This document shows positions 16,510-64,000 of a stretch of 64,000 bases of DNA, one piece after another. This stretch comes from Chiloscyllium plagiosum (taxonomy: Eukaryota), in contig NC_057732.1 in NCBI RefSeq assembly GCF_004010195.1, forward strand, positions 36,872,607 to 36,936,606. Reading direction: 5' to 3'. A program made the translations under genes and the position numbers. The notes beneath the pieces are model-generated. The model searched no databases and was not told the DNA's origin. It was given only the letters and a program-made list of their open reading frames with translations. The first letter of the stretch is position 1; every line of letters starts with the position of its first letter.

Positions 16510-18310
16510 TCTGATCCAAACCACTTATATTGTGTTAAACCAAGGATCAATTAATGACCTCAGAGTTAAGGTACCCCTAGGTTGCACAAAATGATTGCAT
16601 TTTACATCCACTTTTAACAGGGTAGATTTGGTGCAAGACTAGTGTTTTAAACCTAAATAAGGGCTGCCTTGTGGGTATAGGGGTTGAGCTAGCCAAATTG
16701 AAATAGTATATTAAAGCAGGAGGTAGATCAGTACGGACACGCTGGCATATATTTAAGGGAATATTTTAGAATACACAGAATGAATATATTCCCACTATAA
16801 AGAAAAAAAATTAAGGGAAGGATCCACCATCTGTGATTAACTATAAGTCAGAAAAAGTGTCAAACGTAAGGAACAGACATATAACTGCAGTGATCAGTGA
16901 CAGGTCATATGATGATTCAGAATACAACGTATGGTAGAAAATGTGTAAAAGGACTATCACGTGGAAGAAATTAGAATATGAGAAGTAGCCAGATAGGAAT
17001 ATAAAAACGGACAGCAAGAGTTTCTACAAGTAATTAAAAAGGAAAAGAGTAAATAAAGTGAGTATTGGTCCACCAGAGAGTGCGAATGGAGAGTTGACGG
17101 TAGATTATAAGGAAAAGGTGGATTAAGTGAACAAATATTTTGCTTCTCCTTTCACTATAGAGAAAACACAAAACATTTTAGCAATAGCTGTAAGCCAAGA
17201 GGTGGAAGGGAGAGAGAAACGTAGTGGAAGTATAATAATGAGTTAAATAGTACTCAGCAAATCAATGGAACTGTGAACCTCACCCAGGGCCTTAAAAGAG
17301 GTTGCTACTAAGGAGGTAAATGCATTGGGGTTAATTTTCCAAATTTCCATTGACACAGGAAAGATTCCAGCACAATGGAAATTAGCAAATATAACCTCTT
17401 TGCCCAAGAAGGGAATAAGGCAGAAAACAGGTAATTCTAGGGCAGCAAGCTTAACATCTGTAGTGATGAAGCTGTTAGGCTCAATCATTAAAGAGATTAT
17501 AGCTGTGCACTTGGAAAAACCCAAGATCGTCAGGAAGAGTCAAGCCAGTTTTGTCAAAGGTAGATCATGTTTAATAAATTTATTGGATTTCTCTGAAGGA
17601 GTAACCTGCACTGTGTGTAAAGGTATCATGCTTGGAATTCCATTAGTCACACAATAAGGTCTCACATCAAAAATTATTGCAGAAAATAAAAGCTCATGGC
17701 TTTGAGTGAAACATATTGGTGTGGATAGAAATTTGGTTCGCTGGCAGAGAACAGAGACTCTGATGATGAGAGCAAAGACATTCGCAGACAACACAAAAAA
17801 TTGGACGGAAATTACTCTGTGAATAAGACATAAGTAAATTGTAGGTGGATACAGATTGATTGAGATTGTAAAAATCTGGCTGATGAAGAAATATGCGAAA
17901 TTATTCACCTTTGCAGAAAGAAATATAAAGCAGAGTATTAGTTAAACGCAGAATGACCCCTGAGGTACAGAGGGATTTCAGTGTTTTGATGCATGGATCA
18001 CAAAAAGTTAATATGCAGGTACAGCACATAATGAAAAAGACTAATGGCATGTTATAGTTTATTCGGAGAGGAATTGAGCATAAAACTAAGGATGGTATAC
18101 TTCAATTATAGCATTACTGACACCACATCTCAAATACTATGTGTAGTTTTGGTCTCCTTATTTAAGGAAGGACGCAAATTTATTGAAGTAGCATACAGGA
18201 GTTCTACTGGAAATGAGTGTGTTGTTTCATGTGGATAGGTTGGATAGGCTTGTTTCGATTGGAGTTTAAAGGAGAGAGGAGTGAGTTGACTGAAATGTAT
18301 AAGAATCTGA
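16510..18310 (+). mobile_element. Old degenerate CR1 LINE ORF2
   Basis: WKLANIT.LPKKG and FVKGRSCLINLLDF motifs with many disablements; an earlier part of the same element is likely at ~15840-16040. Confidence 0.8.
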
Positions 18311-20304: not shown

Positions 20305-20362
20305 CTGCAGAATAGAACAAAATAAGAGTAAAGTGACAGACTCTTGATATTGTTCTTGGTTT

Positions 20363-22118
20363 GTGACCAGAGAGAGAATAGGACCCCTCAAAGATCAGCA
20401 AGGCGGCCTTTGCGTGGAACCGCAGAAAATGGGGGAGATACTAGACAAGTATTTTACATCAGTATTTACTGTGGAAAAGGACATGGAAGATATAGAATGC
20501 AGGGAAATAGATGGTGACATCTTGAAAAATGTCCATATTACAGTAGAGGAAGTGCTGGGTGTCTTGAAACGCATAAAGGTGGATAAATTCCCAGGACCTG
20601 ATCAGGTGTACCCTAGAGCTCTGTGGGAAGCTAGAGAAGTGATTGCTGGGTGTCTTGCTGAGATATTTATATCATTGGTAGTCACAGGTGAGGTGCTAGA
20701 AGACTGGAGGTTGGCTAACATGGTGCCACTGTTTAAGAAGGGTGGTAAGGACAAGCCAGGGAACTATAGACCAATGAGCCTGACGGCGGTGGTGGGCAAG
20801 TTGTTGGAGGGAATCCTGAGGGACAGGATGTACAAGAAAGGCAAGGACTGATTAGAGATAGTCAACATGGCCTTGTGCGTGGGATATCATTTCTCACAAA
20901 CTTGATTGAGTTTTTAAAAGAAATAACAAAGAAGATTGATGAGGGCAGAGCAATAGATGTGATCTATATGGACTTCAGTAAGGCATTCGACAAGGTTCCC
21001 CATGGGAGACTGGTTAGCAAGGTTAGATCTCATGGAATACAGGGAGAACTAACCATTTGGATACAGAACTAGCTCAAAGGTAGAAGATAGAGGGTGGTGG
21101 TGGAGGGTTGTTTTTCAGACTGGAGACCTATGACCAGTGGAATGCCACAAGGATTGGTGCTGGTCCTCTATATTTCGTCATTTACATAAATGATTTGGAT
21201 GCGAGCATAAGAGGTACAGTTAGTAAGTTTGCAGATGACACCAAAATTGGAGGTGAAGTGAACAGCGAAGAAGGTTACCTCAGATTACAACAGGATCTTG
21301 ATCAGATGGGCCAATGGGCTGAGGAGTGGCAGATGGAGTTTTGGAATTTATTTTGGAAAATAATTTTGGAAAAGCAAATCTTACCAGGACTTATACACTA
21401 ATGGTAAGGTCCTAGGGAGTGTTGCTGAACAAAGAGACCCTGGAATGCAGGTTCATAGCTCCTTGAAAGTGGAGTCGCTGGTAGATAGGATTGTGAAGAA
21501 GGCGTTTGGTATGCTTTCCTTTATCGGTCAGAGTATTGAGTACAGGAGATGGAAGGTATGTTGCGGTTGTACAGGACATTGGTTAGGCTACTATTGGAAT
21601 AATGCATGCAATTCTGGTCTCCTTCCTATTGGAAAGATGTTGTGAACTTGAAAGGGTTCAGAAAGGATTTACAAGGATGCTGCCAGGGTTGGAGGATTTG
21701 AGTTATAGGGAGAGGCTGGACAGGCTGTGGCTGTTTTCCCTGGAGCATTGGAGGCGGAGAGGTGACCTTACAGAGGTTTACAAAATTATAAGGGGCATGG
21801 ATAGGGTAAATAGTCCAGAACTAGCGGGCATAGATCTAGGGTGAGAGGGAAATGATATAAAAGAGACCTGAAAGGCAACCTTTTCACACAGAGGGTGGTA
21901 CGTGTATGGAATGAGCTGCCAGAGGAAGTGATGGAGGCTGGTACAACTGCAACATTCAAAAGGTATTTGGATGGGTTTATGAATAGGAAGGGTTTGGAGG
22001 GATATGGGCCATATGCTGGCAGGTGGGACTAGATCGGGTTGGGATGTCTAGTCGGCATGGACGGGTTGGACCAAAGGGTCTGTTTCCATGCTTTACATCT
22101 CTATGACTCTATGACTCT
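20363..22118 (+). mobile_element. 5'-truncated CR1/HER1 LINE (RT domain and 3' UTR)
   Basis: GNYRP.SLT, DFSKAFDKVPH and KFADDTKIGG motifs; frameshifted; tail CTCTATGACTCTATGACTCTA. Confidence 0.93.
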
Positions 22119-23801: not shown

Positions 23802-24392
23802 CTTAAAGGAGAATTTAACCACAGATTTAGTCACTTAATACGTTTGGGTTGGTGGCACTGGAAGCATTAAATTATATGCAGCTTACATCTATTTCTCCTC
23901 CATGTCAATGTTAAAATGAACAAACAGAAAGTTACATAACCATCTAGTTCATAAAAGTGACCACTACTCCCCTTTACCAAAGTAAAGAATCAGAAAGTTT
24001 TTTTACTTTTTACTTAAACTACGCCATTTTGGAAATGTCAAGTGTTTGATAGACACAGAATGAGAAAAGACCAATTTGTCTTGCAACATTATCCTGTCTC
24101 AGCTCATGTACATTTTATTTGATCACAGTTTCTATCCACATAGTCAATGTTTCTCAAAAGCTTACCTACACTTCACCCAGTCATGTACTCTATCTTAATT
24201 TCCTTCATCAACTCATATAATGCATATGTACTTGAGCCATACTTTAAGCTCTATACTATAGCAGATTCTGTATATGACAAAATTGTCAGAGTAAAGGCCC
24301 CCCAAAAAAACCTCTGATGAAGTTCCATTCCCTGGAACCTCCTTGTTACTTTCTTTAGATCCTGGATTACAGTCAGCTCTTGATGGGGTTAC

Positions 24393-25006
24393 CTGTGTTT
24401 GATGTGTGCGAGTGATTCCAGGGAGGTTAGAGTCGCTGAGGGTCCGCAATAGTCTTGGCATCATTCTGAGTTGAGCCTTTGTGCCCCAAGCAGGCAGAGA
24501 AGCCTGATCAAATAAGCCGGCTGCAGAGGTAGGGGGCCGCAGTGCATTGTCAGGGTCTTCTGGCTCCTGGTTTGCCAGGAGAAATTCTGGTGAGTTAATG
24601 AAGGAAGTGATGGTTGCTCTGATGTGCATGGTCAGTGTGCGGTCAATCACTTCCTTTTGTACCTCCAACTGTACCATAGAAGAGTCGTCCTTGTCAAATG
24701 CGACCTGCAGAAGCCTCTTGCAAATGAAGTCCACTATTTTGGGCACATGTTTGAGATGCCGGGCCTCATATCCATGCAGCAGATGCCGCTGGCGGTGGAG
24801 GTACTGTTCCAAGGTGATAGGATGGGCGTACAAACTCACATCTGTGAACATCGTCCTGTGAGAGTCTACAAACTGGGCAAAGTCATAAACCAAATTAATT
24901 TGAGTGCGTGTCTGGATGGAGCAAGGACGTTTGATCCGAACAAAGTGAATGGCTTCACTGGGGCTGACCCGTGTGGCATAAACCAGGTAACAGGCGATCA
25001 GGACTC
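24393..25006 (-). CDS. PTPDC1: PTPDC1-like large exon (GVLIACYLVYATRVSPSEAIHFVRIKRPCSIQTR...LEQYLHRQRHLLHGYEARHLKHVPKIV...LRTLSDSNL...QTQ)
   Basis: Acceptor ctgatag; strong PTPDC1 motifs QYLxRQRHLLHGYEAR and RPxSIQTR. Donor CAG|gtaacc chosen; a weaker in-phase donor exists at 24312. Confidence 0.9.
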
Positions 25007-26814
25007 CTATCAGACAGCAAGGAAATAAATGGCAAATTGCTCTTACTTTGGGTTTATTTTCATGCTCAATGAAATGAAGGCAATTTTTTTTTAAAAATCA
25101 CATTGAAATAGCACCTTTAACTTAGTAAAATACCTCCATGTGCTTCACAGGAAAGATTATCAGACAAGGTAATTGTTATGAGACATTCAGATTACCGGAA
25201 ATCTGGTCAAAGAGATGGATTGGAAGGAGATTTTTGAAGGAGGAGAGGTAGAGGGTTAGGGAAGTTATTTCAGAATTTAAGACCAGGGCAGCTGAAAACA
25301 ACCAGCAATACTAAAGAAGTGAACAGTGGAGTTGAAGAATGAAATTATTTTCATGTCTTTGAACCCACTGAAAGCTTTCCTTTTCTGTCCACAAATGCTG
25401 AATGACCAAAGCACTGCCAGAAATATCCTTTTCTGAAGTCTGCCTGATGGCGACAGAAAAATAGTTGTCAAGTATTGGACTGAAACTGCTCCAAATTCAA
25501 ACACACAACATTCTTATTCACTTCTTTGAAAATCCTTCATTTGTTAAATAATAACTTGTTTTCAGCAAATGTTCAGTAATGGTATCCCAAATTGAAGATA
25601 AATGGTCAATCTATATAAAACTTCAGTATGACCACAATTGGAGTCTATTATGCTCTACACATTAGAGGGGAAATTGAAGCAATAAATGGAAGAGATCACA
25701 GATTCAAGGATATGCTGTCTGGTGTGAGGAAATGCAAATATGGATAATGCCTTCAAAGAACTGGGGCTCGTCCTTTTGAATCAAGTTGTGTATGGTGTGA
25801 TTGATGGATATGTTTAGTGTTATTAAGGAATGTGATACAGGTAGATAGAAACAGACTGTTTCCAGTGATTGAAGATATCTTGAATGAGGATACATAGATT
25901 TAAGATTAAATGTAGGAGATTTACCACAGTGAGCAGGTGGATTCTTTTTATACAGAACATTAGTTATTGAAGCAGAGACCATATCAATATTTAAGAACAG
26001 ATTAATTCTGCTGGTTGAAGAAGGATGAGATAAAATTATATGAGAACATAGGGTTTTCATGTGGAGGATATACACAAATGACGACTGGATCATGAATTCC
26101 AGGCTAAAACAAAGAATTGCGGATAGTGGAGATCTGAAGCCAAATAGAAATCGATGGCGAAACTCAGCAAGTCTGGCAGCACCTGTGGGGAAAAACCAGA
26201 GTTAATATTTTGAGTCTGGTAACTGTTATTCATCAAGTTCTAATGCTGTCAGACCTGCTGAGTTACGCCTGCAATTTCTGTTTTTATATCATGGATTCTA
26301 AGATTTTGTTCAGGACTAACATTCGAGCCATCTAGTTTACCCTCTCTTTTCTTGAAAAAATGTGACCAGAACTCTGACTTCTTTTCGCATTTACAACCAC
26401 CAGGTTCCATCAACTTAGCCACCAGAAATTCTTTACATTTCTTCAGAACTAATTCAAGCTACACATGTTAAGATAGAACAGATAGAAACTTGGCATTAAA
26501 TGTTTGCTCATGACCAGATTATAAACCCTAAAAGTTAATTAACTGTTACTTTCAGAACCCATAGAAATAAAACATAGTGTGAACCACATTGTCACACAGA
26601 TGGTAGTGGTTCAGAAAGGAGACTCACATTCTGAGAACAAATAGGAATGAGGAATAAATGCTGGTCTTGCCATATCTAAGAGGAAGGAAAGAATGGGGTG
26701 TTAAATAATATCAGTGAATCCGTTGCCGTCAGTTATAAGGAGAAAGTGAATCTGTTTCCATTTTTGATAACACACTATAAGTAACCAATCAATTTACTCA
26801 ATTAGATTCAAGTC

Positions 26815-43100: not shown

Positions 43101-44109
43101 AATGACTACATTCCATGGTAAAAATAAAATAGGTAGACTCGGACACAGAAGACATGGAAATAGATACATATACGCAGAGGGTAGACTGATCCAGAAACAC
43201 ACAGAGAACAGAAACATAGATGGCATGCAGATAGATAATATACAAAGACATGCAAAACCTTAAAAAACACACAACACACAGACATATTGTCGCTTTGGAG
43301 ACAGCATTGAACATGCAGAGGACACACGGACAAACACAAAACTTTTCAGATAGTGAAATGATAAGTGAGTTAGCAAGAATTCATTTTCCATGTGAGACCT
43401 TCTCATTATTTGTCTGCCACCCTACAAAATAGAAAATAAATATGGAACCAAGTGCCAAGAATTGGGCCAATATTGCTCTGGCGTCAATTTTGTGAAATGA
43501 AGTGATCTTCTCCCCAAAATTTCCTTTCCTCCTGTTCTTTGTCCTTTGCCTCCTTACAATTAAGGGGTACAGGGTTAAAATGGAGAGGATCTGTGCCATT
43601 CCTTCATGACACACATTGGTCCTTGCACCATCTTTGGTCACATTCGTGGCAGCAAAGTCGGAGGTGAAACAGGAGTAGTCTGACTGGACAAAGTTTAACC
43701 ATCCTGAGCCCAAAGTAACAGGTGCTTCAGCTTAAATAATGTTCAAAGTCCTCATTCATACTGCAGCCATCATCAGTCATTCAAAGGAAGGCACTTAGGT
43801 AGAAATGAAGAGGTGGGGTCCTCCTGCAGATCACAATGCATTTCCACTTTAAGAAGCAGCGAACTGACCTAATTTTAAGATAATATGCCTAAGGATTAGC
43901 TTCAGCTAAAACACACTGAGTCAGCTGGGAGACCGATCAGATGTCCTTCTGACGTTGATATCAGTCAGATCATCGTCAAGAGATCTCCACGTGGACACAC
44001 AGATCCCTTCCTCAAACAGACATACACATCCACATGGACACAGAGATTCATGCAGATAGTAGTATATACAAATGCAATCTTTCAGTCACAGAACATACAC
44101 GTACAGAGT

Positions 44110-46487
44110 AGATGTTATGGGGCCTTTAACTTTCCAAATATTGACTGGAAATACTCTAGATCGCATACTTTAGATGGGTCAGTTTTTGTCCAATGTGTGG
44201 AGGAGGGTTTCCTGACACAGTACGTAGGCAAGCCAACAAGGGGCGAGGCCACATTGGATTTGGTACTGGGTAATGAACCTGGCCAGGTGTTAGATTTGGA
44301 GGTAAGTGAGCACTTTGGTGATAGTGACCACAATTCTGTTATATTTACTTTAGCAATGGAAAGGAATAGGTATATAATGCAGGGCAAGAGTTATTGCTGG
44401 GGGAAAGGCAATTATGTTGCGATTAGGCAAGACTTAGGATCGATAGGATGGGGAAGGAAACTGCAGGGGATGGGCACAATTGAAATGTCGAGCTTATTCA
44501 AGGAACAGCTACTGCATGTCCTTGATAAGTACGTATCTGTCAGGCAGGGAGGAAGCGGTCGAGCAAAGGAGCTATGGTTTACAAAAGAAGTTGAATCTCT
44601 TGTCAAGAAGAAGAAGGCAGCTTATGTTAGGATGAGGTGTGAAGGCTCAATTAGGGTATTTGAGAGTGACAAGTCAGCTAGGAAAGATCTAATAAGAGAG
44701 CTAAGAAGAGCCAGGAGGGGAAATGAGATGTCATTGGTAGATAGGATCAAGGAAAACCCTAAAGCTTTCTATAGGTATATTAGGAATAAAAAAATGACTA
44801 AAGAAAGATTAGGGTCAATCAAGGATATTAGTGGGAATTTGTGCATGGAGTCCAAGGAGATAGAGGAAGCACAAAATGAATATTTTTCATCAAAAAAAGA
44901 CAATGTTGATGAGAAGAATACTGAGATACAACGAGGAGGTGTGAGCAATTCTGGAAAGTCTGAAAATAGATAAGTCCCCTGGGCCGGATGGGATTTATCC
45001 TAGGATTCTCTGGGAAGCCAGGGAGGAGATTGCAGAGCCTTTGACTTTGATCTTTATGTCATCATTGTCTACAGGAATAGTGCCAGAAGACTGGAGGATG
45101 GCAAATATTGTCCCCTTGTTCAAGAAAGGAAGTAGAGACAACCCTGGTAATTATAGACCAGTGGGCCTTACTTCAGTTGTGAGTAAAGTATTGGAAAAGG
45201 TTATAAGAGACAGGATTTATAATTACCTAGAGAAGAATAAGTTGTTTAGGGATAGTCAATACCATTTTGTGAAGGGTAGGTCGTGACTCACAAACCTTAC
45301 TGAGTTCTTTGAGATGGTGACCAAAGATATGGATGAGGGTAAAACATTTGATGTGGTGTATGTGGATTTCAGTAAGTTGTTTGATAAGGTTCCCCATGGT
45401 AAGCTATTGCACAAAATACAGAGGCTTGGGATTGAGTGTGATTTAGTGGTTTGGATCAGAAATTGGCGAGCTGAAAGACGACAGAGGTGGTGATTAATGG
45501 GAAATGTTCATTCTGGAGTTCAGTTACTAGTGGTGTATCGCAAGGATCTCTTTTGGGGCCACTGCTGTTTGTCATTTTTATAAATGATCTAGATAAGGGC
45601 GTAGAATGATGGGTTGGTAAATTGCAGATGACATTAAGGTCGGTGGAGTTGTGGATAACGCTGAAGGATGTTGCAGGTTACAGAGGGACGCAGATAATTG
45701 CAGAGCTGGGCTGAGAGTTGGTCAATGAAGTTTAATGTGGAAAGGTGTGAGGCGAGGAGCAAAAGTAATAAAGAGTTCTGGGCTAATGGTAAGATTCTTG
45801 GTAGTGTAGATGAGCAGAGAGATTTCATTGTCCACATACATAGATCCCTGAAAGCTGCCATCCAGGTTGATAGGGTTGTTAAGAACGCATATAGTGTGTT
45901 AGCTTTTATTGATAGAAGGATTGAGTTTTGAAGCCACGAGATCATGCTGCAGCTGTACAAAATTCTTGTGTGGCCACACTTAGAATATTGTGTACAGTTC
46001 TGGTCACCGCATTATAGAAACGATGTGGAAGCTTTGGAAAGGGTTCACAGGAGATTTACTAAAATGTTGCCTAGTACGGAGGGAAGGTCTTATGAGAAAA
46101 AGCTGAGGTTCTTGAGGCTGTTTTCATTAGAGAAGAAAGTTGAGAGGAGACTTAATTGACACATATAGGATAATCAAAGGGTTAGATAGGGTGGACAGTG
46201 ACAGCCTTTATCCTTGGATGGTGATGGCCTGCAAGAAAGGACGGAGCTTTAAATTGAGGGGTGATAGATATAGGACAGATGTCAGAGGTAGTTTCTTTAC
46301 TAAGAGAATAGTAGGGGCATGGAACGCACTGTCGGCAACAGTAGTAGACTCGCCAACTTTAAGGGCATTTAACTGGTCATTGGATAAACATATGGATGAA
46401 AATGGAATAGTGTAGGATAGATTCCACAGGTCAGCGCAACATCGAGGGCCAAAGGGCCTGTAATGCGCTGTAATGTTCTATGTTCTG
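44110..46487 (+). mobile_element. CR1 LINE, long ORF2 remnant (endonuclease C-terminus, RT, 3' UTR)
   Basis: FNFPNIDW, PTRGEATLDLVL, SDHN, GNYRPVGLTS and PHLEYCVQFWSPHY motifs; multiple frameshifts. Confidence 0.93.
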
Positions 46488-50148: not shown

Positions 50149-51473
50149 CCAACCTAGACATAGACCTCGATTGCATATCAATTACAATGGAAAGAGCAAC
50201 GTGAGCTTTACTCATTTGGTTTTAAACTGGTGCCAGTCTTTGCTCAACCAATGACATATAATACAAAATGAACATAAATGTCAAGTTATTTCTGAAGTGG
50301 CAATATATTTCTAGTTTTATTTTTTAATATTTCAAATTTGTTTTTCTTATCACCATAAACCAGAGTTCTCAACTGGCGTTTTAACTTGGGACTTCACTTC
50401 CTTCATCTGCCATTCTTGGGTCCTTGCTATACTCACTGACGACCTGGTACACCAACAGCTCAAATTTAAAATTATCATTCTTGAAATCAAATCCCTCTAT
50501 CACCTCAAATTTCTCTCTAAAATATGCCAGCTCTATAACTCCCCAATATATTGGTACTGCAACTCTGCCAATTTCACATCCCAGATTTTAATTGCTCCAT
50601 CTCCAGCTGTAAATGTCCAAGACCAAGAATCCTTCCTTAAACCTCTCCACCTTTTTCCTTCTCTAAGCTCAACATTAACATTTTGTGGACTCTCCTTATA
50701 ACTCATGTGGCTTGATATATCAAGTAGTGCTCCTATAAAACGCATTCAGATTTTACATTTACATAATTCCTTTGGCATCACAATATAGTAGCGAAGAGGA
50801 CATTTTGATTGACTAATGAAAAAAGAACAAATTAAAGGCATTAGTGGTGACAACAAAAGGTGACTGGAGTTCAGATTGGTCAATTCATCTCTGTACACAG
50901 CTTAGTCTCCAGTTCATAGGGTAACAGCCACAGAAAGTATAAGTGGCACAAGTAAATAAAAATCACATTTTTCATCCTGAGGTTTAATATTAGGAAATGC
51001 TCTCTCTGCACTGTTCCATCAATCCCCAGCAGACACAATAAAGCTCTCTCTACACTCTTCAGACACTACCAGGACAAGTATTGCACAGGTCAGATAAAGA
51101 ATAAACTCCCTCTGGGTGGTCCTTCTAGAGTGCCACTATCCCTTTTGCAATATTTTTCCCTGAACAAACTACCTATAGTTGCTGTGGGAATTTATGCAGG
51201 CTGAACCATACCATCAGCACATGGAAAGACAAAACAGGTAATTACGTTTCTGGTGTGTAACTCTTCATTGTCTCTGCAAACCTGGTTTTAGTTTCTGGTT
51301 TCCAGAGTTTGTTTCCTGTTTAGAGTTGTATTAGCAATTTTCTACCATGTATTCATTAATGGAACTCAGTACAACCCAAAGTGACTGTATAAAAATGATT
51401 CTCACAACTCTGGAACCAGTTGGATTTATTGAAGGGCTATGAGAAACAACAAAACTCCTTAAAATCAAACTGC

Positions 51474-51479
51474 TTTATT
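51474..51479 (-). terminator. IMPDH1: Probable IMPDH1 polyadenylation signal (3' UTR ~1.1 kb)
   Basis: AATAAA on the minus strand with a downstream GT/T-rich tract (gagttttgttgtttctc); a second AATAAA lies at 51425-51430. Confidence 0.5.
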
Positions 51480-52574
51480 AAATTTCATTCTTTACAGGCA
51501 TCATTGTCAGATTTCGCAACAAGTTTCACTCAACAGGAAGTGGCAGAAGCATTTCTAATCCACATTCAGTTCTGCTGAGTATACACTTGTGGTAACAAAC
51601 TTAAAAGGATCTCAACTTTCATCTGTAGACATGGAACTGGATTTGGATTGCTTAGTGGAGCAAGGGGTTGAAGTGGAAAACAGCTTTCATATGCTGAAAT
51701 TGGAAAAAGGTGAACTTTATTCAGAAGTTATTTTTATAGGAATTTCCCATACCTCAAACAGAACTGGGACATTACCCATGAGATATTGTTTAGAGCCATC
51801 CCAGGATAAGTTCACACTTCCTTTGGTGATGACAGCAGTTCCAAAGCAGTGCCCACAACTCTCCCTGATCCAGGGAAGTGCGACTTCAATAGGGTCAGCC
51901 TGCCCTGGGCATTTGAACAGTAAAGACTGCCTCCCAGCGTATTCAAGACCCTAACACAATACCCTCACTATCTCCCATGGGTCAGGGAGCTAGTTGAAAA
52001 AGGACAAAAAAAATTAAATCGCTTCCATCCATGCAGAACTGTATCAAATGTCATGTACGCAACATTGGGAATGTAATCATGTAAACTAGGATCCCACTGC
52101 TTCCATTTCTCAGTGACACCTTTTTTGGGGACGGAGAAAGAATCTTATTTCTTCGCAACCCCTCCATACACATTTTAAACAAAAATACGAATACTTCTGG
52201 TGATGAAAAAGGAAGTTGCAGTTCAAGTCTGTTCAGTGAAACTCAGTGAAATCTTGCTATAAATAGCTATATATCAGGCTCATTTCCTGGCCACGGGAAA
52301 AGACAGAGTAAACAACATTGAGAACTCGCGTATTTTCTCTGGGTGCAGTGGTGATATTGCTGCTTTTCCTCTTGCTACATTCTTCACGGCTCCAAGTAAC
52401 AAAAATCCAAAATCAAAGATAAAGGAATTGTGCATCACAAGCCAGGAGGCATGGAGCGGGGCTGTTGCCTCTGCGTGAGGGACATAGGAAGGTGGTCAGG
52501 GACGCCTGTGAGGTTTAACGGCCAATGGGGAGGGGACGTTGGGAGCCACAGCCTGGTGGGCAACACCTCCTTCT

Positions 52575-52596
52575 TCAGTAAAGCCGCTTCTCGTAA
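52575..52596 (-). CDS. IMPDH1: IMPDH1 terminal coding exon (SYEKRLY*)
   Basis: ttttcttttag|TTACGAGAAGCGGCTTTACTGA; the alternative frame stays open to TGA at 52496-52498. Confidence 0.93.
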
Positions 52597-53713
52597 CTAA
52601 AAGAAAACAAAATACATAATAGTGCTGCAGTCTTGAAAGTGAGGAAATGTCAATCATCCATCAAATTCCCCTCTTCCACAATCCATGCAACAGCTACCTC
52701 AGCCTTCCATCAACTGCTAAATAATTAGTCAAAGAAACTGGTCATATCTTTCATTGGTGATGGTGGGATTTTAAGTGCATGCAAATTGATTGTTGTGTCT
52801 GCCTGAATAACAGTAACAGCACTTTGAAAAATAATTCACTAACCATGAAGAACTTTGAAATGGTTTGGCAAAACTTGTTGTATGAATGTAAGCTCTTTCC
52901 TTCTACTTTTGTACTTGTGCCCAAAGCTGAGACAAAGCTGGAAAGATTGCTAACTTCCAAGCTCAGTGATGTACTTGTGCCTATTGTCACAATTTACTCA
53001 CCTTAAACATGCTCCTCCTGCTGTTTCATGAGTCATATAGCTCAGTAGTTCGTAAGGTAATAAAGAAGGGGACACTGGACATTTCGCCAAGTCAAGTGGA
53101 CATAAAGATTATACACTTACAGCATTGAATCCTCAAGTGCCTATGCTGAAAAGCTCACAATCCCAGTCAATAATCAGGATGCTAAAAGCTATCAGCATTT
53201 GACAGAACAAGGTAACCAAAGTAGTGAGAACTAAAACAGTGCTGAACACAGTAGTCTATCAGGCACAGAAGTTGACTGTTGAACTATTGCATTAACTAAC
53301 TCAGTATAGACAGAGGGCCAGGCCAGAGTCAACACTGAAGAGGAGTCATCTGAACTCAAAAATTTAACCTTGCTTTTTCGCTATGGAACCTACCTGATCC
53401 GCTGTGATTTCCAGCATCTGCAGTAATTTGCTCCTGCTAGAGTCTGACTGCTCAATGTAACTTAAAACTAAGGGTGTCATTGCTAGAATTCACATCCCAT
53501 CTAGAAAGCAGACCCCAAATTCCAGGTTTGTACTGCCAGAGTATCAAGCTTCAAGCCAGGGACTCAAATTGCTAAAGTCATCATGCATTGATTCACTGGA
53601 CAGAGGAGATTTTCAGTGACGCCTACTTGCAAACATATCGCAGGAGATGTATGAGGACATGTTTTAATTGGCAAACATGGCTAACTATTAAATCAATATT
53701 TGGGTTTACTTAC

Positions 53714-53730
53714 ATGGCACAAAAGTGTAC
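53714..53730 (-). CDS. IMPDH1: IMPDH1 17-nt alternative microexon (retinal exon 13b homologue; YTFVP)
   Basis: tgtcag|GTACACTTTTGTGCCAT|gtaagt; gives SYTFVPFTRSG versus human retinal SYTFLPFTKSG (recalled). Confidence 0.9.
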
Positions 53731-55445
53731 CTGACATGTGAATGCATGAGTGAAGGAAAGAAAGACAAAGTGTGGATAAAACAGCCATCAAGGCAAAACA
53801 CAGCACTAGCTAAACATGTACCTGAAAGCTACAGAATACCAAGCTGGTACAGCACATGCCCAACAGAACATCTTTCACATCATAATCAAGGCCACTGGTT
53901 TATAGGTTTCATGGACGAGTAAAGAATGGGGAGCCTGATGCATGAACATTAGTCAAGAAAAATAAATCAAAGAATCCCACATAACAGAAGAGTGCAATAA
54001 TTTTGACTCCCCATAAGCCAGTGCCCTTGCTTTGCCCACACATTAATGGCTGGATTCCAGGCACTGTACATGCACTATAGCAAGTCTCTAGAAGCACCAT
54101 ATTGAAAGACGCAGGGTAACTGAATAACTTTCAACACTGTTAGCCATTCAGCAACAGTGTGAGGGTTCTGCCACACACCAGGAAGGGTGAATCCAAGCAC
54201 CATTCAAAATGCTTCGCTTCATCTGAGCAATCCGTGGATGCAGAATAACACAAGTTAAAGGATCACTTCCGTTCCATGGAGTTAGAGGGAAATATTCAGA
54301 TTTGTCCCCATTCTCAGTAAGACTAGCCTTTTCCAAATTTGCTGACAAGCAGTAAATTCTTGCTTGAGTAAATGAGGTTCCATGAAGACAGCTTGGAAGC
54401 AATTGCACATCACGCATTTGTAGCAATTATCAGCAACTTAAAAAGGTAGTTTCTGTGAAGCTGAGAGAATACCAAAATTCCAGAAACTAAGGGAGTCGTG
54501 AAGCAATTGATATATAAAATTAGACAAGTTAATGCTTATTTAGATGTCAAGTATAGTGATAGAACACTTGTCTCTGCATCAGCAGGTCATGGGTTCAAAT
54601 TCCACTTCAGGAACAGGAACAGGAACAGAAACAAAAATATCAGAGTTGACACTTCAATGCCATTCTGAGGAGGACTGTTCACTTAGTTTTAATTTGGATG
54701 AAATAAACCCGACCTGCATTCTCAGATGGATACGATGTCACTAATTAAAAAGGGAAGAGCAGTTAGCACTGGTGTTCGAGTCAATATTTATCCTCTAAGC
54801 AATACTATCAAATACATATTGGTCATTACATTGCTGTCTGCAGGACCTGGTTGTGCTCACACTGACTGTCACATTTTCTACATTGCAACAGTGACTACAA
54901 ATCAATAGGCACTTATCCAGTAGATGACAGAGCCCAGTCAAATTGAAAAGGAGGATTTCAGCCAAATGTGCAACTAAGGCTGAACACAAAGGGGGCAAAC
55001 TTCCAACAGGATGATGAAGAGTAATCTCTTTCATGGATAAGAATCTGTGACATGACAGAAAGGGTGAAGGTTCAGATAAGCTGAGATGGCAGAGAGGGAG
55101 AGGGAGAGATAAAGAGCAAGCTGCTATTGCTGCTGATTTAGATCAGTGCCAAATAGGCTAAACAGCTACATGTGGAACAACAAGGATGAAGGAGTAGATT
55201 GTAGCTAGCTGAAGTAGTTTTAAAATTCCCTAAAAACTGTCTTCCTTGTCTCACCCAAACTGAATTCTGTGACCCACCATAGTCTCGCTGAACAATGTAG
55301 ACTTAGCATCTTACGGAGGGCAAGTGGGGAGGTATTGGACTTCAGACAGTGAACAATCAAGGGGATGGACTGCAGCTAATCCATCACTACAAGCAAAAAT
55401 GAAAATCTAAGCGGGAGAAATGGAAACACATGTTGGGAGACTTAC

Positions 55446-55529
55446 GAATGCAGACCATGCACACCTCCTTCTACCTGAGCGGAGATGGTTCTTTTTTCAA
55501 ACTTCAATTCACCCGAGTACATCATTGAC
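55446..55529 (-). CDS. IMPDH1: IMPDH1 exon ([28 protein letters not shown])
   Basis: 84 nt, boundaries tttcag / gtaagt. Confidence 0.95.
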
Positions 55530-56350
55530 CTGAAAAATAGTAGGGAGGAGGAGAAAGTCAGTAAGAAAGCAAGGGGCTGGAGAAGCCAGGAAAAGGTGCG
55601 CCAGAAAGCAAATCAAAAGAACAGGAAAGGAAGGTAACTTATTTACTGTATATTCTGCAAGCATTTTCACTGCCCAAATTAAAGAGCAATAAAACTGCAT
55701 AATCATCTAAATGTACAAGTTTTCTCTGGTTTCCCTCACAACAATCTTCTGTCTCACTTCCATGAATTATTTATTGTTTAGCACACAGAGTTCACAGACA
55801 GGAAAATGCCAGATGGTCCATAAGCTTGAGAAAGATGGCTAGTGTATTACCAAATGACCAAATATATTCCACAGTTACATCTTAGGGATCCTCGAGTATA
55901 TGGAAAATACTAGAAGAGCCCACAACAATAAAGATAGTAATAGTAAAGTCACCAAATTCCTACCAGACCAAAGGGCTGCTCTCACATTACAGAGAGATGA
56001 CTAGTTTAATTGAAGGGTCACCTCATCTCAGGTGAGGGGAGAAGTTAAGGACTGTCTTTCATGGCAACCTTAGCCAGTGCAGGAATTGGAACCACACTTA
56101 TGGCATCACTCTGCATCACAAACCAGCCAATTTAGCTGACCAAACCACCACGCAACCCCATGACAATAAGGGAAAGTACAGTTGAGAATTAGGTGGACTA
56201 TAACCACAGCACAAAAATAAACTGCTGTCACTGGTTCAGTGTGCCAATCTACAAAAACAATTACCCCTTATCAGTCTTCTATCTTACAGAGAAAACAACA
56301 ATGTTGAGACTAGATAACATATGAAAAGGAACCACAGCTACTAGCTCTCA

Positions 56351-56578
<228 letters not shown>

Positions 56579-56856
56579 CTATAACTGGACAGTGCTGAGA
56601 ACAGCTTACATTATATAGTCCAAATAATCACCCTTTATACAAATGTGCAGTGCTCAAGGAACAAATTTAATGAAGTTAGGCACAAGTTCTATTTGTATCA
56701 TATGATTATTTAGATATTACCAAGGCAGTTACAAGATAGTCTGCAAGATCTTCAGGATTGGGAATTAAACATAGCATGTTACAGAGGTCACCACAGGTTT
56801 AAAAAAAAAAGGATAAGGAGCAGCCTTTGTGATTAAAGATGAAAATGTGTCAATAA

Positions 56857-57177
56857 GGGACAGCAAGGGAGCTCAGTGGTTAGCACTGCTGCTTCACAGC
56901 ACCAGGGTCCCAGGTTGCATTCCAGCCTTGGGTGACTGTCTGTGTGGAGTTTGCACATTCTCCCAGTGTCTGCGTGGGTTTCCTCCAGGTGCTCCATTTC
57001 CTCCCACAATCCAAAGATGTGGGGGCCAGGTGAATTGGCCATGCTAAACTGCCCATAGTGTTAGGTGCATTAGTCAGAGGGAAGTGGGTCTATGTGGGTT
57101 ACTCTTCGGAGGGTCAGTGTGGACTGGTTGGGCCGAAGTGCCTGTTTCCACACTTTAGGGAATCTAATCTAATCTAA
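56857..57177 (+). mobile_element. HE1-like V-SINE
   Basis: GCTCAGTGGTTAGCACTGCTG head, central domain, (TCTAA)n tail. Confidence 0.85.
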
Positions 57178-58445
57178 CCAGTGGTAAACAGACAGACAGA
57201 CTTAACAGAAATGCATTCAACTTCATTAAAAACTTTTCTTTTTAGTATATTCAGTCATGGAATATAGGTTCATTGGCCAGGCCAACATCTATGACTGATC
57301 TCCAATTGCCCAGTGGACAGTTAGGTATAAACCACATTTCTGTGGATTCGGAGTCACGTATAGTCCAGGCCATATTAGGACAGCACTTTCCCTTTCTAAA
57401 AGACTTTATAGTTCACTAGGTGGGCTTTTCTGACTTTTACCAATTGCTTCATAGTCATCATTAGACTCCTAATTCCAGATATTTATTCAATTCAAATTCC
57501 ACCATCTGCCATGGCAGGATTCGAATCAGGGTCCCCAGAACACTTCCAGCATTTCTAGATTAACAGACTAGCAATACCACCACTAGGCCATCCCCTCCTC
57601 TAAATTGTGAGCAGGCCCCGGTAGCAGCTCAAATGAGCAGATTTTATAAATGCAGAGATTTGTAAACTTCACTTTTATTAAATCGAGATCAGAATTGAGT
57701 GAGTCTGGAAATGTTTCCTGCAACAGTTCATCCCAGAAATAACAACCAGCACATTATACAAAAGCAAAATAATGTGAAACATAAATCTGAACAAAAAAAT
57801 TGAAAAACACTGATAACAATCAGATCAGGATACATCTATGGATCAGAACAGTTAACAGGCAACAGTGCAATGTGCTGAATGCTGACCCAGCTCCCAGGTG
57901 AGTGCAGGCCTCACTCCTTGGCCTGTGATTTACATTCACCCAGCTGATTGTAGGAACAGAAAATAGTAGGAGTAGGCCACTCTGCCTTTTGAGCCTACGC
58001 GGTCATTCAATAGGATCATGGCTGATCGTACAATGTTCCTGTTTTCTCCCCATACCCTCCGATCTCTTTAGCCCCATGAACTATATTGAACTGCTCTTGA
58101 AAACATTTAATGTTTTGGCCTTGATTGCCTTCGGTGGCAGAAAATTCCACAGGCTCAGCACTGGGTTAACGCTCCCACACAGGGTCCAGTGCTGCCTCCA
58201 TTCCCAAGATGATACCTGGCACCGTTCATAGCTTTAATTTCATTTTTGGGTTTTAAGTTTGTCCTTTAATATATACAATACAGAAATACAAATCAAACTT
58301 AAAAAGTATGCTTCAATTTTCAAACAAGTTTCTAAACAACAGTAAGAATAACATACCGTGCATCCTCATCACAGTATGCAGAGGCTACCTGTTCTCAGCA
58401 CTCAAATGATAACACTGGTGACAGAACTAGCAGCTCAAGGTCTTA

Positions 58446-58673
<228 letters not shown>

Positions 58674-59388
58674 TTAGACAGAACAAGTGAAAAGGAAAAA
58701 AGGTGTTAATTTATTGAGGTTAATGGCAATTTGCTACTTTCCTGTTGAGTTGATTAAACTCAGTTTTCCACCCTAACTGCATATTATGCAGTGGGTAATC
58801 ATACAGCACAGGTTAAACACAGAAAATATTAAGTACAGAGTAAAGCTTCCTCCACAATCTAGGATAGAGCTGGAATATAAAGCAGACACCCAGTTTCATA
58901 GTTCATTGTGGTAAGAAGGGGAGAATTATTTTCTGACAGTCACAAATCTATGAAATTCTCTTCCCTAGAGAGTAGTGGAAGCAGGGAAACTGATTACGTT
59001 TAAAGGGAGAAGTAAATAGATTCTTGACTAAGAGAGCCAAAGGATATCATGGTTAGCAGGAAAATGAGTTAAAGCCATATGCAGAGCTATATCTTATCAA
59101 ATGGCACAGCAAACTTGATGGACCCAATATCCCACCCACTCCTAATTTGTTTGTTCATAAGTGGCTCACGAACCTTATCACAATGATTGAAATCATTCAA
59201 ATGGTTGTCCCTGCCACTTCCCTCTTAGCCCACCAAGCCAAACCTCAAACTTGCATCTTTCTTACAGCTTATCTTGTATTCTCTCCAAGATCACCTTGAC
59301 CACAAGATTACACAACCTTACCCCACCCCCACCCCCAAATCCCTGGTAACACCTAAACTGCTAACCAGCCAAACTTCTTTTCCTGATC

Positions 59389-59530
59389 AGGCGAAAGTGA
59401 GAACGGCAGATGCTGGAGATCAGAGTCAAGACAAGAGTGGTGCTGGAAAAGCACAGCAGGTCTGGCAGCATCCAAGGAGCAGGGAAAAAAAAATTAAAAA
59501 AAAAAAAACCGACGCTTCGAGCAGGAGCCC
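59389..59530 (-). mobile_element. Penelope-derived short element with a 13-bp TSD and an internal A-run expansion
   Basis: TCTTTTCCTGATC at 59376-59388 and 59531-59543; same family sequence as the 7390 and 49929 elements. Confidence 0.7.
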
Positions 59531-60103
59531 TCTTTTCCTGATCCCCATGTTAGTCCTGTTAACAGTTCCTTCTCCTCTGTTCCCAGCCTTTAAAATCCAT
59601 TATACCTTATCCCAAAAACATACCCTAGAGTCCTCTGTACTTGTATTGCTGACTTTGATCACCTTTCTCTCTCCCAAATCCCTGAACTTAGTTTTACTTC
59701 CCAAAATATGTGTCAATGTTTCTAGCAACTCAGTGTTTGAACGTCTCAAACTCGTCATAGGCCCGAACAGCCTTAAAATTTACAATGCATATGGACATTT
59801 TACATTCTCAACCTCGTTTAAATGACTCCATCACACTGCAATCAGATCCCCCCCAATAACAGTGCCCTGCCTCAGAATCCTGCATCCCTTTTTTTATTAT
59901 GCAATTGGTGTCTTTAGCTGCCAAGCACTTAGCTTTTAAAAATTTCCCCTAAGCCCTGCTACTCATCTTCAAAACCATTAAAACTACTCCTTTGACCAAA
60001 CTCTTGATTAGCCCTCCTATCTCTATTTTGACACCATCTAATGTGAAACTTTTGATAATGGTCATGTGCAAAAGGGTTACTCAAACATTCTTGCTGCTAT
60101 CTA

Positions 60104-60602
<499 letters not shown>

Positions 60603-60697
60603 CAGTTAATGAAGTAGCTCAGTTTCTCCACTTCTTGTGACAGTCTTCAGTTGTCACAGGAATGCTGATATTTGTCACAGGATTGAGCTCCAAAATA

Positions 60698-60869
60698 CAA
60701 AGGAACCTCAATTATTCAAATGACACGGGTGGGGATCATTTTGTTTTGTTAATCGAATTCCGGATAATCGAACTCTGGATAACAGTTTAGCCAAATATTG
60801 GGACATTGCGATCTTGGCGGATAATCCAATATTCGGATAATCAAATGCTGGATAATCCATGTTCCTCTG
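60698..60869. mobile_element. Tc1/mariner(pogo)-type MITE
   Basis: TA flanks at 60696-60697 and 60870-60871; imperfect TIRs CAAAGGAACCTCAATTATTC / GGATAATCCATGTTCCTCTG; repeated internal GGATAA motifs. Confidence 0.7.
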
Positions 60870-62589
60870 TACATAAAACTAGTGAATAACTGTCTTCCAT
60901 TTAAAAGGGTTGCGTGACAAGAGATTTCTCACCTTCCAAGTCCTCACCTAAGAGTCATGAGTCATGACTGCACAGAAATAATTATCCAATTTTGTTTTTT
61001 CAAAATCATTTCTGCTTCCACCACTCATCAAAAGCAAAAAGGTTCTGGATCATTATCACTTGCTGCTTAGAGGAGTGATGAATAGCTATTTCATTAGAGG
61101 AGGAGAGAAGAGGTGAACTCAAACTGTGCAAAGAATATTTTGGACAGCTGATTCAAGCCAAGCCTAAATGAAATATCATATGTTAAATGCACTAACTAAA
61201 TGCAACCTGCTGATGGAACAGCCTGAAGCTTAATACCATCAACACCACAACCAACTTGATCAGTGCCCAAGAGTGAGCTCAGCACCCAGTCCTCAAAAAG
61301 AGTTGCACTGTGTATGATTCACAGGATGGACTGGAGCAATACATCAGGGTTACTTCTACATTATCTCCTTCCCTATAACCATCACCGTCAAACAGAAAAA
61401 GAGCAAACGTTTCATGGGAACTCTACTACCTCCCAGTCACCCTCTCTTCTGAAAAAAACACAATGTTTGCCTACATTTTAAACAGTACTTCAAAAGCAAT
61501 AAATTTGCTGCGAAGGTTTTTGACACGGAGGTCATAAAAGGCATTGTAGAATTATCACTGCTTTGTCTTTTTTTCTATTGATAGTATCAGAGAATGCTCT
61601 GACATCAATAGATTCAAATTCTTGTAATACTAGATACTTAAGCCAAAGCAATGTGTTAACAAAATGATGGCTCAATGGTCACCAGAACATCAAGGCCAAT
61701 GATCGTTATCTGGCAATTGTTGCTGAGACACTCCTGGCTCAGGGCACTCAGAATTCTCAGTCACATGCAATGCTGCTCAAGACCATTCGAAGGATAGCAG
61801 CCGATTTCCTAATTACAGCAGTGGCCATAAAACAACAATCGTCTATTGGCCATAAAACAACGGCACGGTTTCCCAGTTTGCACGTCAGCTAATGCACACC
61901 AGATCAAGGGATCGGTCACATTTAAATCACAATCAATGAATCCCGTGCTGTCTGTTCATCTTAAACTTTTGCCAAGGACATCTACGCAAGTCAATAGGTT
62001 TTTTGCATTTTTAATTAATTCTCAGCTGCCTCAGTTCAGCAGTTTCTTTTTCTATTATTAGCTTGTTTGTGTCAATTTTAAAATGCTTGATCTCTGTTGA
62101 TTGGGCCCATTAGTGCAGCCAGAGCCTGCTGAGAAGTCAGCTAAGAGTGTGTTGGTGTCAGATCATGCATAGCCTTGGAGCTCACTCCGCTGAAAGGTTG
62201 ATGCTGTTGGAGATTAATTGGAGCATTCAAGATAGAGGTTGACAAGAGTTTTGTTGGGGTAGGAAAATATTGAGGAAAGGTGGGTAAATGAAGCAGAGAT
62301 ACAGTTCAGCTGTGATGGAAACTAGTGGCAAATACACTCAAGCAGTGAACTGGTAGCTTTCTGTTTGTATGAAGGAATCAGGATTTCTTCCCTCCCAAAA
62401 TCAACATCATTCAGTGTTGTGAGCTGGAGCCACCAGGGATCAGATCCATAAACCGCTATTACGTGTTGGAACCTTGCATCTAGTACTGGCACGTTCATAA
62501 TACCAAATCTAAATTTGTATTTGGATTCCAATCAGAGGTGAATGGCTTATCTATAATCTGCTCCATGCACTTTAATCTTCTGGCTATTA

Positions 62590-62829
<240 letters not shown>

Positions 62830-63431
62830 TCATTCATTAAATGTGGACATTTGCTGCCCATTCCCAGTTGCCCACAGAGCAATTAGGAGTCTCTCTCATT
62901 GCTGTAAGGTCTGGAGTTCACGTAGGCCACAAGTCACATGTAGGACAGATCAGGGGAGGATGGCAGATTTTCATCCCTAAAGAGGACACAAGTGACCAAA
63001 TGGGTTTTTTGTAACAACTGACAGTGGCTACATGTTTGCTATTAGGCTGGCATTTCATTCCAGAGTTTCACTGAAGTCAAACTTCATCTGCCATGGTGGA
63101 ATTCAAACCCAGAACCTCAGATGTTTCGCTGCTTCTCTACAGCAAGTGTCAGAAGTCAGAATGAGAATTTTCGCTAATTTTTCTCATTTGAACACAAAAA
63201 GAAGATTCAGCCTATCAACTCCATTTGGTCACTTTATATCAACCCAACCATTTAACCTCTGCCCACAGCCACAGTACAATCTGTGTAAGAAATGCAGTGA
63301 AGTAGCAGCCTGGACTGAGGCTCCAGTCTTCAAATGGGGTTCAAACTCATGACTGACAATCGGACAAAGATGAGGGGGAAAGAGACAGACTGGAAAGGAA
63401 TAAAACAGGGCCAGTGTGAATTATTACTTAC

Positions 63432-63522
63432 CATTTCCACCAACAACCTGCAACTCTGGGTACTTCTGTTTAATGTAACGGATCATATTTATCTGGAAGA
63501 CAGAGTTTCCTTGGGATGAATC
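63432..63522 (-). CDS. IMPDH1: IMPDH1 exon ([30 protein letters not shown])
   Basis: 91 nt, boundaries gttttcag / gtaagt. Confidence 0.96.
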
Positions 63523-63856
63523 CTGAAAACAAATGGAACAAAGGATGATTACAAAATCCATTTGAGTCAAATATTCCCCTTTCACCCTGCTTCACAAAGT
63601 TTAATTTCTGTCCATCTGAGAGAGAAGATACAGCCAGATTTCTAATCAACTGAACAACAGTATTTTAGATCTATCCTGCAGCAGAGAGTGAACCTGGAGT
63701 GGGATTTGAATTTATGAACTCCTGGTTCAAATACTAGAGTGCAAAACATTGAGCTGAAAGTTACTGTCAATGCAATTGAATGCAACTCAATCTTAAGATG
63801 TAGTCACAGCCAACCACTGAGGCACTGCTGCCAAAATCTCTCAATCCCAATTCCTA

Positions 63857-64000
<144 letters not shown>

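What the first reader, a model, noticed from the sequence alone, without database searches (positions are those of the whole stretch)
52496..53730. Retinal IMPDH1 frameshifting microexon and 37-aa C-terminal extension conserved in a shark
Seen: a 17-nt exon with perfect splice sites shifts the last exon into a second frame open to TGA at 52496, giving SY-TFVPFTRSGFTEEGGVAHQAVAPNVPSPLAVKPHRRP (37 new residues replacing EKRLY). Known (recalled): mammalian retinal IMPDH1(546/595) use a 17-nt exon 13b giving a 37-residue tail starting TFLPFTKSGCTE, which lowers GTP feedback sensitivity. Inference: this dual-coding switch, including its length, predates the cartilaginous/bony fish split, and the conserved part is YTFxPFTxSGxTE plus a late PL.
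Basis: partly seen in the sequence, partly recalled or inferred. Interest (0 to 1): 0.7.

Follow-up and report, generated by a model that had tools for sequence, protein, structure and literature searches.

The report
Ancient retinal IMPDH1 tail-swap microexon
A 17-base mini-exon in a shark's IMPDH1 gene swaps the enzyme's last five amino acids for a 37-residue tail and was found spliced in only in rhodopsin-containing RNA; it is the counterpart of the known human retinal switch, which likely eases GTP feedback, and matching lamprey gene models suggest the switch is older than jaws.

Summary
Observation confirmed. The 17-nt exon (53730-53714, minus strand) shifts the last IMPDH1 exon and gives 37 residues in place of EKRLY. 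It is spliced in: one RNA run of a close relative carries all the junctions, and it is the only one of four runs laid that holds spliced rhodopsin; the other three show the skip joint. The switch is known in human, mouse and zebrafish (17 nt, SRRM3/4-responsive), and RefSeq already lists the tail for a catshark and three lampreys.

Corrections: tail length is not fixed (20-47 aa; 37 in 33 of 79 distinct tails). 'PL' is not conserved (21 of 79). Tail positions 6-11 are dictated by the overlapping EKRLY frame. Independently conserved are the exon-encoded [T/S]F[L/V]PF and a P-[N/S/D]-[V/I]-P motif at tail position 23-24 in most non-mammals. In sharks the tail beyond the canonical stop is under purifying selection (9 synonymous to 3 non-synonymous changes against catshark). 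Reduced GTP feedback in the shark enzyme is inferred, not tested. I found no paper on the shark or lamprey exon.

The parts
53714..53730 (-). 17-nt frameshifting microexon of IMPDH1; completes Ser and encodes Y-T-F-V-P plus the first base of F
   Evidence: sequence; junction loose ends in run X3; 17 of 17 nt identical in catshark by two-frame arithmetic on annotated isoforms (inferred)
53731..53805 (-). acceptor region of the microexon: pyrimidine tract, no AG from -76 to -3, TGC at -16, four YCAY in the last 50 nt
   Evidence: compatible with SRRM3/4 and Nova motifs described in PMC9303857; single motifs are not above chance, and the YCAY count is reached by about 2% of background windows
53681..53713 (-). 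donor gtaagt and two TAG (Musashi-type) motifs at +27 and +31
   Evidence: motif role inferred from bioRxiv 10.1101/2021.08.04.454918; significance not tested
55446..55529 (-). penultimate constitutive exon (SMMYSG...GLH), with two internal GT donors at 55474 and 55464 that explain minor RefSeq models
52575..52596 (-). dual-coding start of the last exon: canonical YEKRLY-stop, overlapped by tail residues 5-12
52496..52574 (-). rest of the alternative-frame tail (3' UTR in the canonical mRNA), ending at TGA 52498-52496; under purifying selection in sharks
52526..52543 (-). P-N-V-P-S-P motif, tail positions 23-28; P-[N/S/D/T/C]-[V/I] sits at 23 or 24 in 50 of 79 distinct tails
51464..52495 (-). 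3' UTR; AATAAA/ATTAAA hit at 51479; the X1 contig runs 836 letters past 52300
56350..64000 (-). upstream IMPDH1 exons (about 56350-56497, 58449-58590, 60131-60270, 62611-62706, 63433-63522, 63869-64000); the gene continues beyond the window
   Evidence: tblastn of P0001/P0002; joint 55527-56350

Best explanation
This is the shark counterpart of the vertebrate retinal IMPDH1 microexon: when the 17-nt exon is spliced in, as seen in a rhodopsin-containing RNA run, the last exon is read in a second frame and a 37-residue tail replaces EKRLY, which likely lowers GTP feedback inhibition in photoreceptors. Shown: the anatomy, both splice forms, inclusion in the one rhodopsin-positive run and the skip joint in three rhodopsin-negative runs, and selection on the tail in sharks. 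Inferred: (1) inclusion is driven by SRRM3/4 with Musashi, as for the human and zebrafish exon; (2) the stop stays in the last exon, so the mRNA should escape decay; (3) the frameshift removes Glu510 and Arg512 (human numbering; Thr and Val in the shark tail), the contacts proposed to hold the GTP-inhibited compressed octamer, so the enzyme keeps making guanine nucleotide at high GTP; (4) the switch predates the lamprey/jawed-vertebrate split and is absent from shark IMPDH2.
For: Junctions in X3 and skip joints in X1, X4, X6. Spliced rhodopsin exons only in X3. Catshark XP_072327304.1 aligns through the tail start with human IMPDH1(546/595), TFVPFTRSG against TFLPFTKSG. Human, mouse and zebrafish exons are all 17 nt; human inclusion is 95% in retina and 5% elsewhere; zebrafish falls from 90 to 20 in srrm3 mutants (PMC9303857 supplements). 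MSI1 knock-down halves human inclusion. Glu510/Arg512 model: bioRxiv 10.1101/2021.08.03.454821. Tail position 1 is T/S in 77 of 79 and position 3 is V/L in 79 of 79 distinct tails; the lamprey canonical end HEERSY keeps E and R at these places while 3 other residues change. Beyond the canonical stop, window against catshark: 9 synonymous, 3 non-synonymous changes (p 0.0006-0.003 by transition weight); against another shark 11 to 9 (p 0.006-0.03). Lamprey canonical and long tails fit one DNA at only 1 of 12 offsets, the same offset as in sharks and apes. Shark IMPDH2 last intron: no AG-(3-39)-GTRAG candidate, best match to the exon 10 of 17.
Against: X3 differs from the window by 2-3% in introns, so it is a relative; the two runs that match the window (X1, X6) show only skipping. 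The loose-end table was cut (65 rows not shown), so low inclusion in X4 is not excluded, and X3 lacked cover on the upstream exon, so no inclusion rate can be given. No shark enzyme has been assayed. In zebrafish the tail-only form has a GTP IC50 of 460 uM against 4900 uM with both extensions, and I saw no tail-less control in the passages read. Lamprey evidence is gene models only, and the unrooted tree does not settle IMPDH1 orthology.
Confidence: 0.85

Rival explanations
1. Loss, not gain: the switch works only by deleting the EKRLY contacts, and the tail sequence past about residue 5 is a tolerated by-product.
For: Positions 6-11 are dictated by the canonical frame. Mammalian tails share 3 of 25 later positions with shark. 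Snake models have 20-aa tails. Residues past 515 are unresolved in human structures.
Against: Synonymous excess beyond the stop in sharks. P-[N/S/D/T/C]-[V/I] holds position 23-24 in 46 of 52 non-Gly-rich tails from lamprey to lizard.
Confidence: 0.35
2. The shark exon is a general neural (SRRM3/4) microexon, or is shared with pineal and brain, and photoreceptor restriction came later.
For: Only four runs were compared and their tissues are not on record. Human neural inclusion is 13%. The acceptor has the TGC layout shared by neural microexons.
Against: The only including run is the only rhodopsin-positive run. The exon is retina-enriched in human and mouse.
Confidence: 0.12
3. Cryptic or vestigial exon without function in sharks.
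For: RefSeq shark models include several other odd 3' forms from internal donors, so annotation alone proves little. No protein evidence.
Against: 17 of 17 nt shared with catshark and 14 of 17 with another shark (inferred); selection on the tail; junctions in RNA.
Confidence: 0.03

Closest known systems
Human retinal IMPDH1(546)/(595), microexon HsaEX0031609 (PDB 7RGI, 7RFH)
   Same: 17-nt exon before the last exon, frameshift, five residues replaced by 37, same start T-F-x-P-F-T-x-S-G (9 of 12 identical). The N-terminal extension exon is also present 28 kb beyond the window.
   Different: Positions 13-37 share 3 of 25 residues; the human linker is Gly-rich with PxxP at 25, the shark has PNVPSP at 23. 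GTP kinetics are measured in human and not in shark.
Zebrafish impdh1a retinal isoform tvX1, microexon DreEX0039328
   Same: 17 nt, srrm3-dependent, photoreceptor expression, C-terminal extension; teleost tails carry the P-N-V-P motif at position 23.
   Different: Teleost tails start with Ser and are 34-39 aa in most models (47 in one); teleosts have two impdh1 paralogues.
Retina-enriched microexon programme (RetMICs; PMC9303857)
   Same: 3-27 nt exon with TGC upstream and TAG downstream; IMPDH1 is a named member.
   Different: That study used human, mouse, chicken and zebrafish; 'shark' and 'lamprey' occur 0 times in its main text. This member changes the frame.
RefSeq models XP_072327304.1 (Scyliorhinus torazame) and XP_078727468.1, XP_075926802.1, XP_061422862.1 (lampreys)
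   Same: Same tail start; the catshark tail differs from the window's at 3 of 37 residues.
   Different: Automatic annotations with no tissue or function attached; lamprey tails are 42-43 aa.

Membership tests
Vertebrate retinal IMPDH1 C-terminal splice switch | Host gene is IMPDH1, not IMPDH2 | tested here: met
   the IMPDH2 paralogue lies on another contig
Vertebrate retinal IMPDH1 C-terminal splice switch | 17-nt exon between the last two constitutive exons that shifts the frame | tested here: met
   17 nt in human, mouse, zebrafish
Vertebrate retinal IMPDH1 C-terminal splice switch | Tail homologous to the human 546/595 extension | tested here: met
   9 of 12 identical in positions 1-12, 3 of 25 afterwards
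Vertebrate retinal IMPDH1 C-terminal splice switch | Both included and skipped mRNAs exist | tested here: met
   inclusion in X3 (a close relative), skip joint in X1, X4, X6
Vertebrate retinal IMPDH1 C-terminal splice switch | Lower sensitivity to GTP feedback | not testable with these tools
   E510 and R512 are replaced as in human; no assay
Retina-enriched microexons (RetMICs) | Length 3-27 nt | tested here: met
   17 nt; definition
Retina-enriched microexons (RetMICs) | Inclusion much higher in retina than in other tissues, neural ones included | tested here: inconclusive
   1 of 1 rhodopsin-positive and 0 of 3 rhodopsin-negative runs show inclusion; contigs give no rate and tissues are not on record
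Retina-enriched microexons (RetMICs) | Dependence on SRRM3/4 | not testable with these tools
   TGC at -16 present; dependence shown for the human and zebrafish exons only

The most novel reading that the evidence does not exclude
The photoreceptor IMPDH1 switch arose before lampreys and jawed vertebrates split, as part of the first vertebrate eye, and its tail has two modules. The first five residues abolish the Glu510/Arg512 clamp. A P-[N/S/D]-[V/I]-P-[S/T]-P site, held at position 23-24 from lamprey and shark to frog and lizard, is a docking or phosphorylation site written in what is otherwise 3' UTR; mammals rewrote it and some snakes lost it. These natural variants would separate the two published models (lost contacts or steric bulk) of how the tail resists GTP.
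Probability: 0.35. Interest if true: 0.55.

Novelty: new member of a known kind. Interest (0 to 1): 0.33.

Why it matters
IMPDH1 mutations cause retinitis pigmentosa, and how the retinal C-terminal tail lowers GTP feedback is open: two models are in print. The shark and lamprey data push the switch back from bony vertebrates to, probably, the base of vertebrates. They also show which residues are freely conserved ([T/S]F[L/V]PF, and P-x-[V/I]-P at 23) and which are forced by the overlapping frame. Shark (37 aa), snake (20 aa), lamprey (42-43 aa) and mammal (Gly-rich) tails form a ready panel for testing the two models. The switch itself is known and the shark protein is already annotated, so surprise is modest.

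Tried and rejected
PDB search with the last-exon part of the tail alone (32 aa): 0 hits at E up to 10; the later tail is too diverged from human. No listed holder was on record as RNA; spliced joints were then read from contigs. Search with the lamprey C-terminus: 106 hits among 697 candidates, no named hagfish or invertebrate and no IMPDH2 with this tail; weak evidence of absence. Tree of 12 sequences without outgroup: the lamprey branch is not resolved against IMPDH1/IMPDH2 (67% on a branch that joins it with the two IMPDH2 rows), while 13 of 18 diagnostic columns side with IMPDH1, 2 with IMPDH2, 3 with neither, and bit scores are 981 against 941. 'Late PL' and fixed length rejected. An RxxPxxP (SH3 class I, recalled label) reading fits 40 of 79 tails but not the shark, so it is not adopted. 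The exon with the canonical start (MADYL) was not found in the 30 kb upstream; two N gaps lie there. Paper searches for shark or lamprey work on this exon: 0 papers; listings only, none on it by title or abstract start; subscription journals and VastDB's own cross-species tables were not searchable, and 6 of 18 supplement files of PMC9303857 were not searched. PMC9044917 was not held; its preprint was read in passages. No fold or complex was predicted: the tail is reported as disordered and no binding is claimed. No earlier findings.

Full report
Observation. On the minus strand the window holds the 3' half of an IMPDH gene. The penultimate exon (55529-55446) is closer to human IMPDH1 than IMPDH2 (44.6 against 40 bits), and a second, 85%-identical copy on contig C18 is the IMPDH2 paralogue. 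Direct splicing to the last exon at 52596 gives SYEKRLY-stop. A 17-nt segment at 53730-53714 has cag| and |gtaagt ends; with it the last exon is read one frame on and gives 37 residues to TGA 52498-52496. Of 11 short AG/GT candidates in this intron it is the only one with a pyrimidine tract of 70% or more.

Is it used? Four of 24 listed runs were laid; all are contigs with library not on record. X1, X4 and X6 show the direct joint 52596-55446. X3 shows no such joint but three loose ends that match the predicted junctions letter for letter: the whole microexon next to the last exon, the last-exon start next to the microexon, and both together next to the upstream exon. X3 and X4 differ from the window by 2-4% in introns and so come from a close relative; X1 and X6 match the window. 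I then located rhodopsin in the genome and laid the same four runs on its last two exons. Only X3 covers them and holds the exon-exon joint; X1, X4 and X6 have zero depth over the exon bins 7324-7831 and 9102-9355. Inclusion is thus seen in 1 of 1 rhodopsin-positive and 0 of 3 rhodopsin-negative runs. Limits: contigs give no rate, 65 loose-end rows were not shown, X3 lacks cover on the exon at 56350-56497, and neural tissue was not separately tested.

Other sharks. The tail is already in RefSeq: Scyliorhinus torazame XP_072327304.1 has it, 37 aa with 3 differences, and unnamed shark-like proteins P0008, P0015 and P0018/P0150 have 37-aa versions. Minor models that use an internal donor read the microexon and last exon in other frames. 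Two frames fix the DNA, so the exon can be inferred: 17 of 17 nt identical in catshark and in P0008's species, 14 of 17 in P0018's. The same method on the last exon tests selection beyond the canonical stop, where the DNA is otherwise 3' UTR. Against catshark there are 9 synonymous and 3 non-synonymous changes in the tail frame (expected synonymous share 0.27-0.32; p 0.0006-0.003); against P0008, 9 and 4; against P0018, 11 and 9 (p 0.006-0.03). The pairs share the window as reference and are not independent, but the tail is clearly held as protein in sharks.

Across vertebrates. A search with the catshark C-terminus gave 767 hits among 806 candidates. The best 120 were listed, 119 could be parsed (P0125 dropped, upstream motif missing), and they give 79 distinct tails. 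The list is ranked by likeness to the shark and is biased that way. Lengths run 20-47 aa, with 37 in 33 of 79: sharks, sturgeon, herring, salmon, most mammals. Frog models are 34-36, Anolis 40-42, Crotalus 20. So 37 may be ancestral for jawed vertebrates, but it is not fixed, and the shark-human match hides a two-residue shift (PxxP at 23 against 25; 3 of 25 identical after position 12). 'PL' occurs in 21 of 79. Given canonical YEKRLY-stop, tail positions 6-11 can only be M/T, K/R, K/N/R/S, A/D/G/V, C/F/S/Y and I/T, and the observed variation largely fills these sets, so that block is no independent sign of function. Independent signs are positions 1-5 ([T/S]F[L/V]PF), Glu at 12 (75 of 79) and P-[N/S/D/T/C]-[V/I] at position 23 or 24 in 50 of 79 tails, or 46 of the 52 that are not Gly-rich (a crude split that mostly separates mammals).

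Lampreys. XP_078727468.1 (Lampetra fluviatilis), XP_075926802.1 (Petromyzon marinus) and XP_061422862.1 (Lethenteron reissneri) end in a 42-43 aa tail that starts TFVPFT, like the shark's; the short form XP_078727471.1 ends HEERSY. One DNA can encode both forms at only 1 of 12 offsets tested, the same offset as in catshark and ape, which implies the same 17-nt insert. Two lamprey models also show a QAGYExES N-terminal piece like the retinal one. I saw no lamprey DNA or reads. The gene is IMPDH1-like (981 against 941 bits; 13 of 18 diagnostic columns), but the unrooted tree does not resolve it. Either way the shared switch would predate the cyclostome/gnathostome split. The shark IMPDH2 last intron (2451 nt) has no candidate exon. 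No hagfish or invertebrate tail was named among 106 hits.

What is known. PMC9303857 (passages; rows from 12 of 18 supplement files) lists the 17-nt exon in human (95% retina, 5% other tissues), mouse and zebrafish (90 to 20 in srrm3 mutants), responsive to SRRM3/4; it infers a jawed-vertebrate origin of the programme without shark or lamprey data. bioRxiv 10.1101/2021.08.04.454918 (passages) reports about 50% loss on MSI1 knock-down. PMC10849882 and PMC9022972 (passages) give the 5-to-37 residue swap and lower GTP sensitivity. PMC8688572 (passages) shows the zebrafish isoform in rods and cones. bioRxiv 10.1101/2021.08.03.454821 (passages) proposes either loss of Glu510/Arg512 contacts across the compressed octamer or steric hindrance by the disordered remainder. 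PMC11246115 (passages) adds simulation only. Searches showed no paper on the shark or lamprey exon; subscription journals are mostly not held.

Mechanism. Shown: anatomy, two splice forms, inclusion with rhodopsin RNA, selection on the tail. Inferred: in photoreceptors SRRM3/4 (TGC at -16) with Musashi (TAG at +27, +31) include the exon (motifs alone are weak); the new stop lies in the last exon, so decay is unlikely (general knowledge); E510 and R512 become T and V; the inhibited octamer is less stable and GTP synthesis continues. The lost-contact model fits the comparative data: no tail has a charged residue at positions 1 or 3, the lamprey canonical end keeps E and R while three neighbours change, and snake models manage with 20 residues. 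The fixed-register proline motif suggests a second role that mammals rewrote; it is untested. Against simple transfer of the human result: the zebrafish tail-only form has an IC50 of 460 uM against 4900 uM with both extensions. An exon for the N-terminal extension lies 28 kb beyond the window (G000:C23:36964489-36964692), so the shark can probably make a 595-like form; I did not test its splicing.

Verdict. Real, used and conserved: a new member of a known kind, already present as automatic annotation. What is added here is the link to rhodopsin-positive RNA in a shark, selection on the tail, the probable pre-jaw age, and a corrected map of conserved residues. Interest 0.33.

Noticed in passing
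window 55474 and 55464 (minus strand, inside the penultimate exon): Two internal GT donors explain RefSeq shark models that reach the last exon in all three frames: one enters the retinal tail without the microexon (P0002, P0011), one restores EKRLY with the microexon (P0007, P0149), one reads a third frame (P0004, P0145). No such joint was listed in the four runs laid.
   Followed up: partly
window 52596-52438 (minus strand): The third frame of the last exon is open for 53 codons and ends in PGL-stop, as it does in catshark and two other shark-like models, although it changes faster than the tail frame (9 of 25 against 3 of 26 residues). Unexplained.
   Followed up: partly
window 53714-55472: Run X3 has the intron upstream of the microexon at depth 35 and the downstream intron at 13, plus a microexon-to-last-exon junction, which hints that the downstream intron is removed first (contig depths, weak).
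   Followed up: no
G000:C23:36964489-36964692 (L008:8690-8893, minus): Exon for an N-terminal extension with HETAAQRY, matching the human 595 helix region. The exon with the canonical start was not found; N gaps at L006:8882-9611 and L007:2692-3191 may hide it.
   Followed up: partly
P0129, P0131-P0135: Crotalus tigris and four unnamed similar models have a tail cut to 20 aa that lacks the proline motif: a natural truncation test.
   Followed up: no
window 24216-25097 (minus): 294-aa open frame of a neighbouring gene; it resembles a protein-tyrosine-phosphatase-domain protein (recalled label, PTPDC1-like), but Pfam gave 0 families at E up to 0.001.
   Followed up: partly
G000:C18:59925124 and C18:60532382: IMPDH2 and rhodopsin lie about 0.6 Mb apart on one contig.
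   Followed up: no
window 3316-3948, 17277-17654, 20348-20848, 43900-45283: Broken open frames that look like LINE reverse-transcriptase pieces (recalled label).
   Followed up: no
window 54554: Three runs (X1, X3, X4) have 5 letters more than the window here, a polymorphism or assembly slip in the intron.
   Followed up: no
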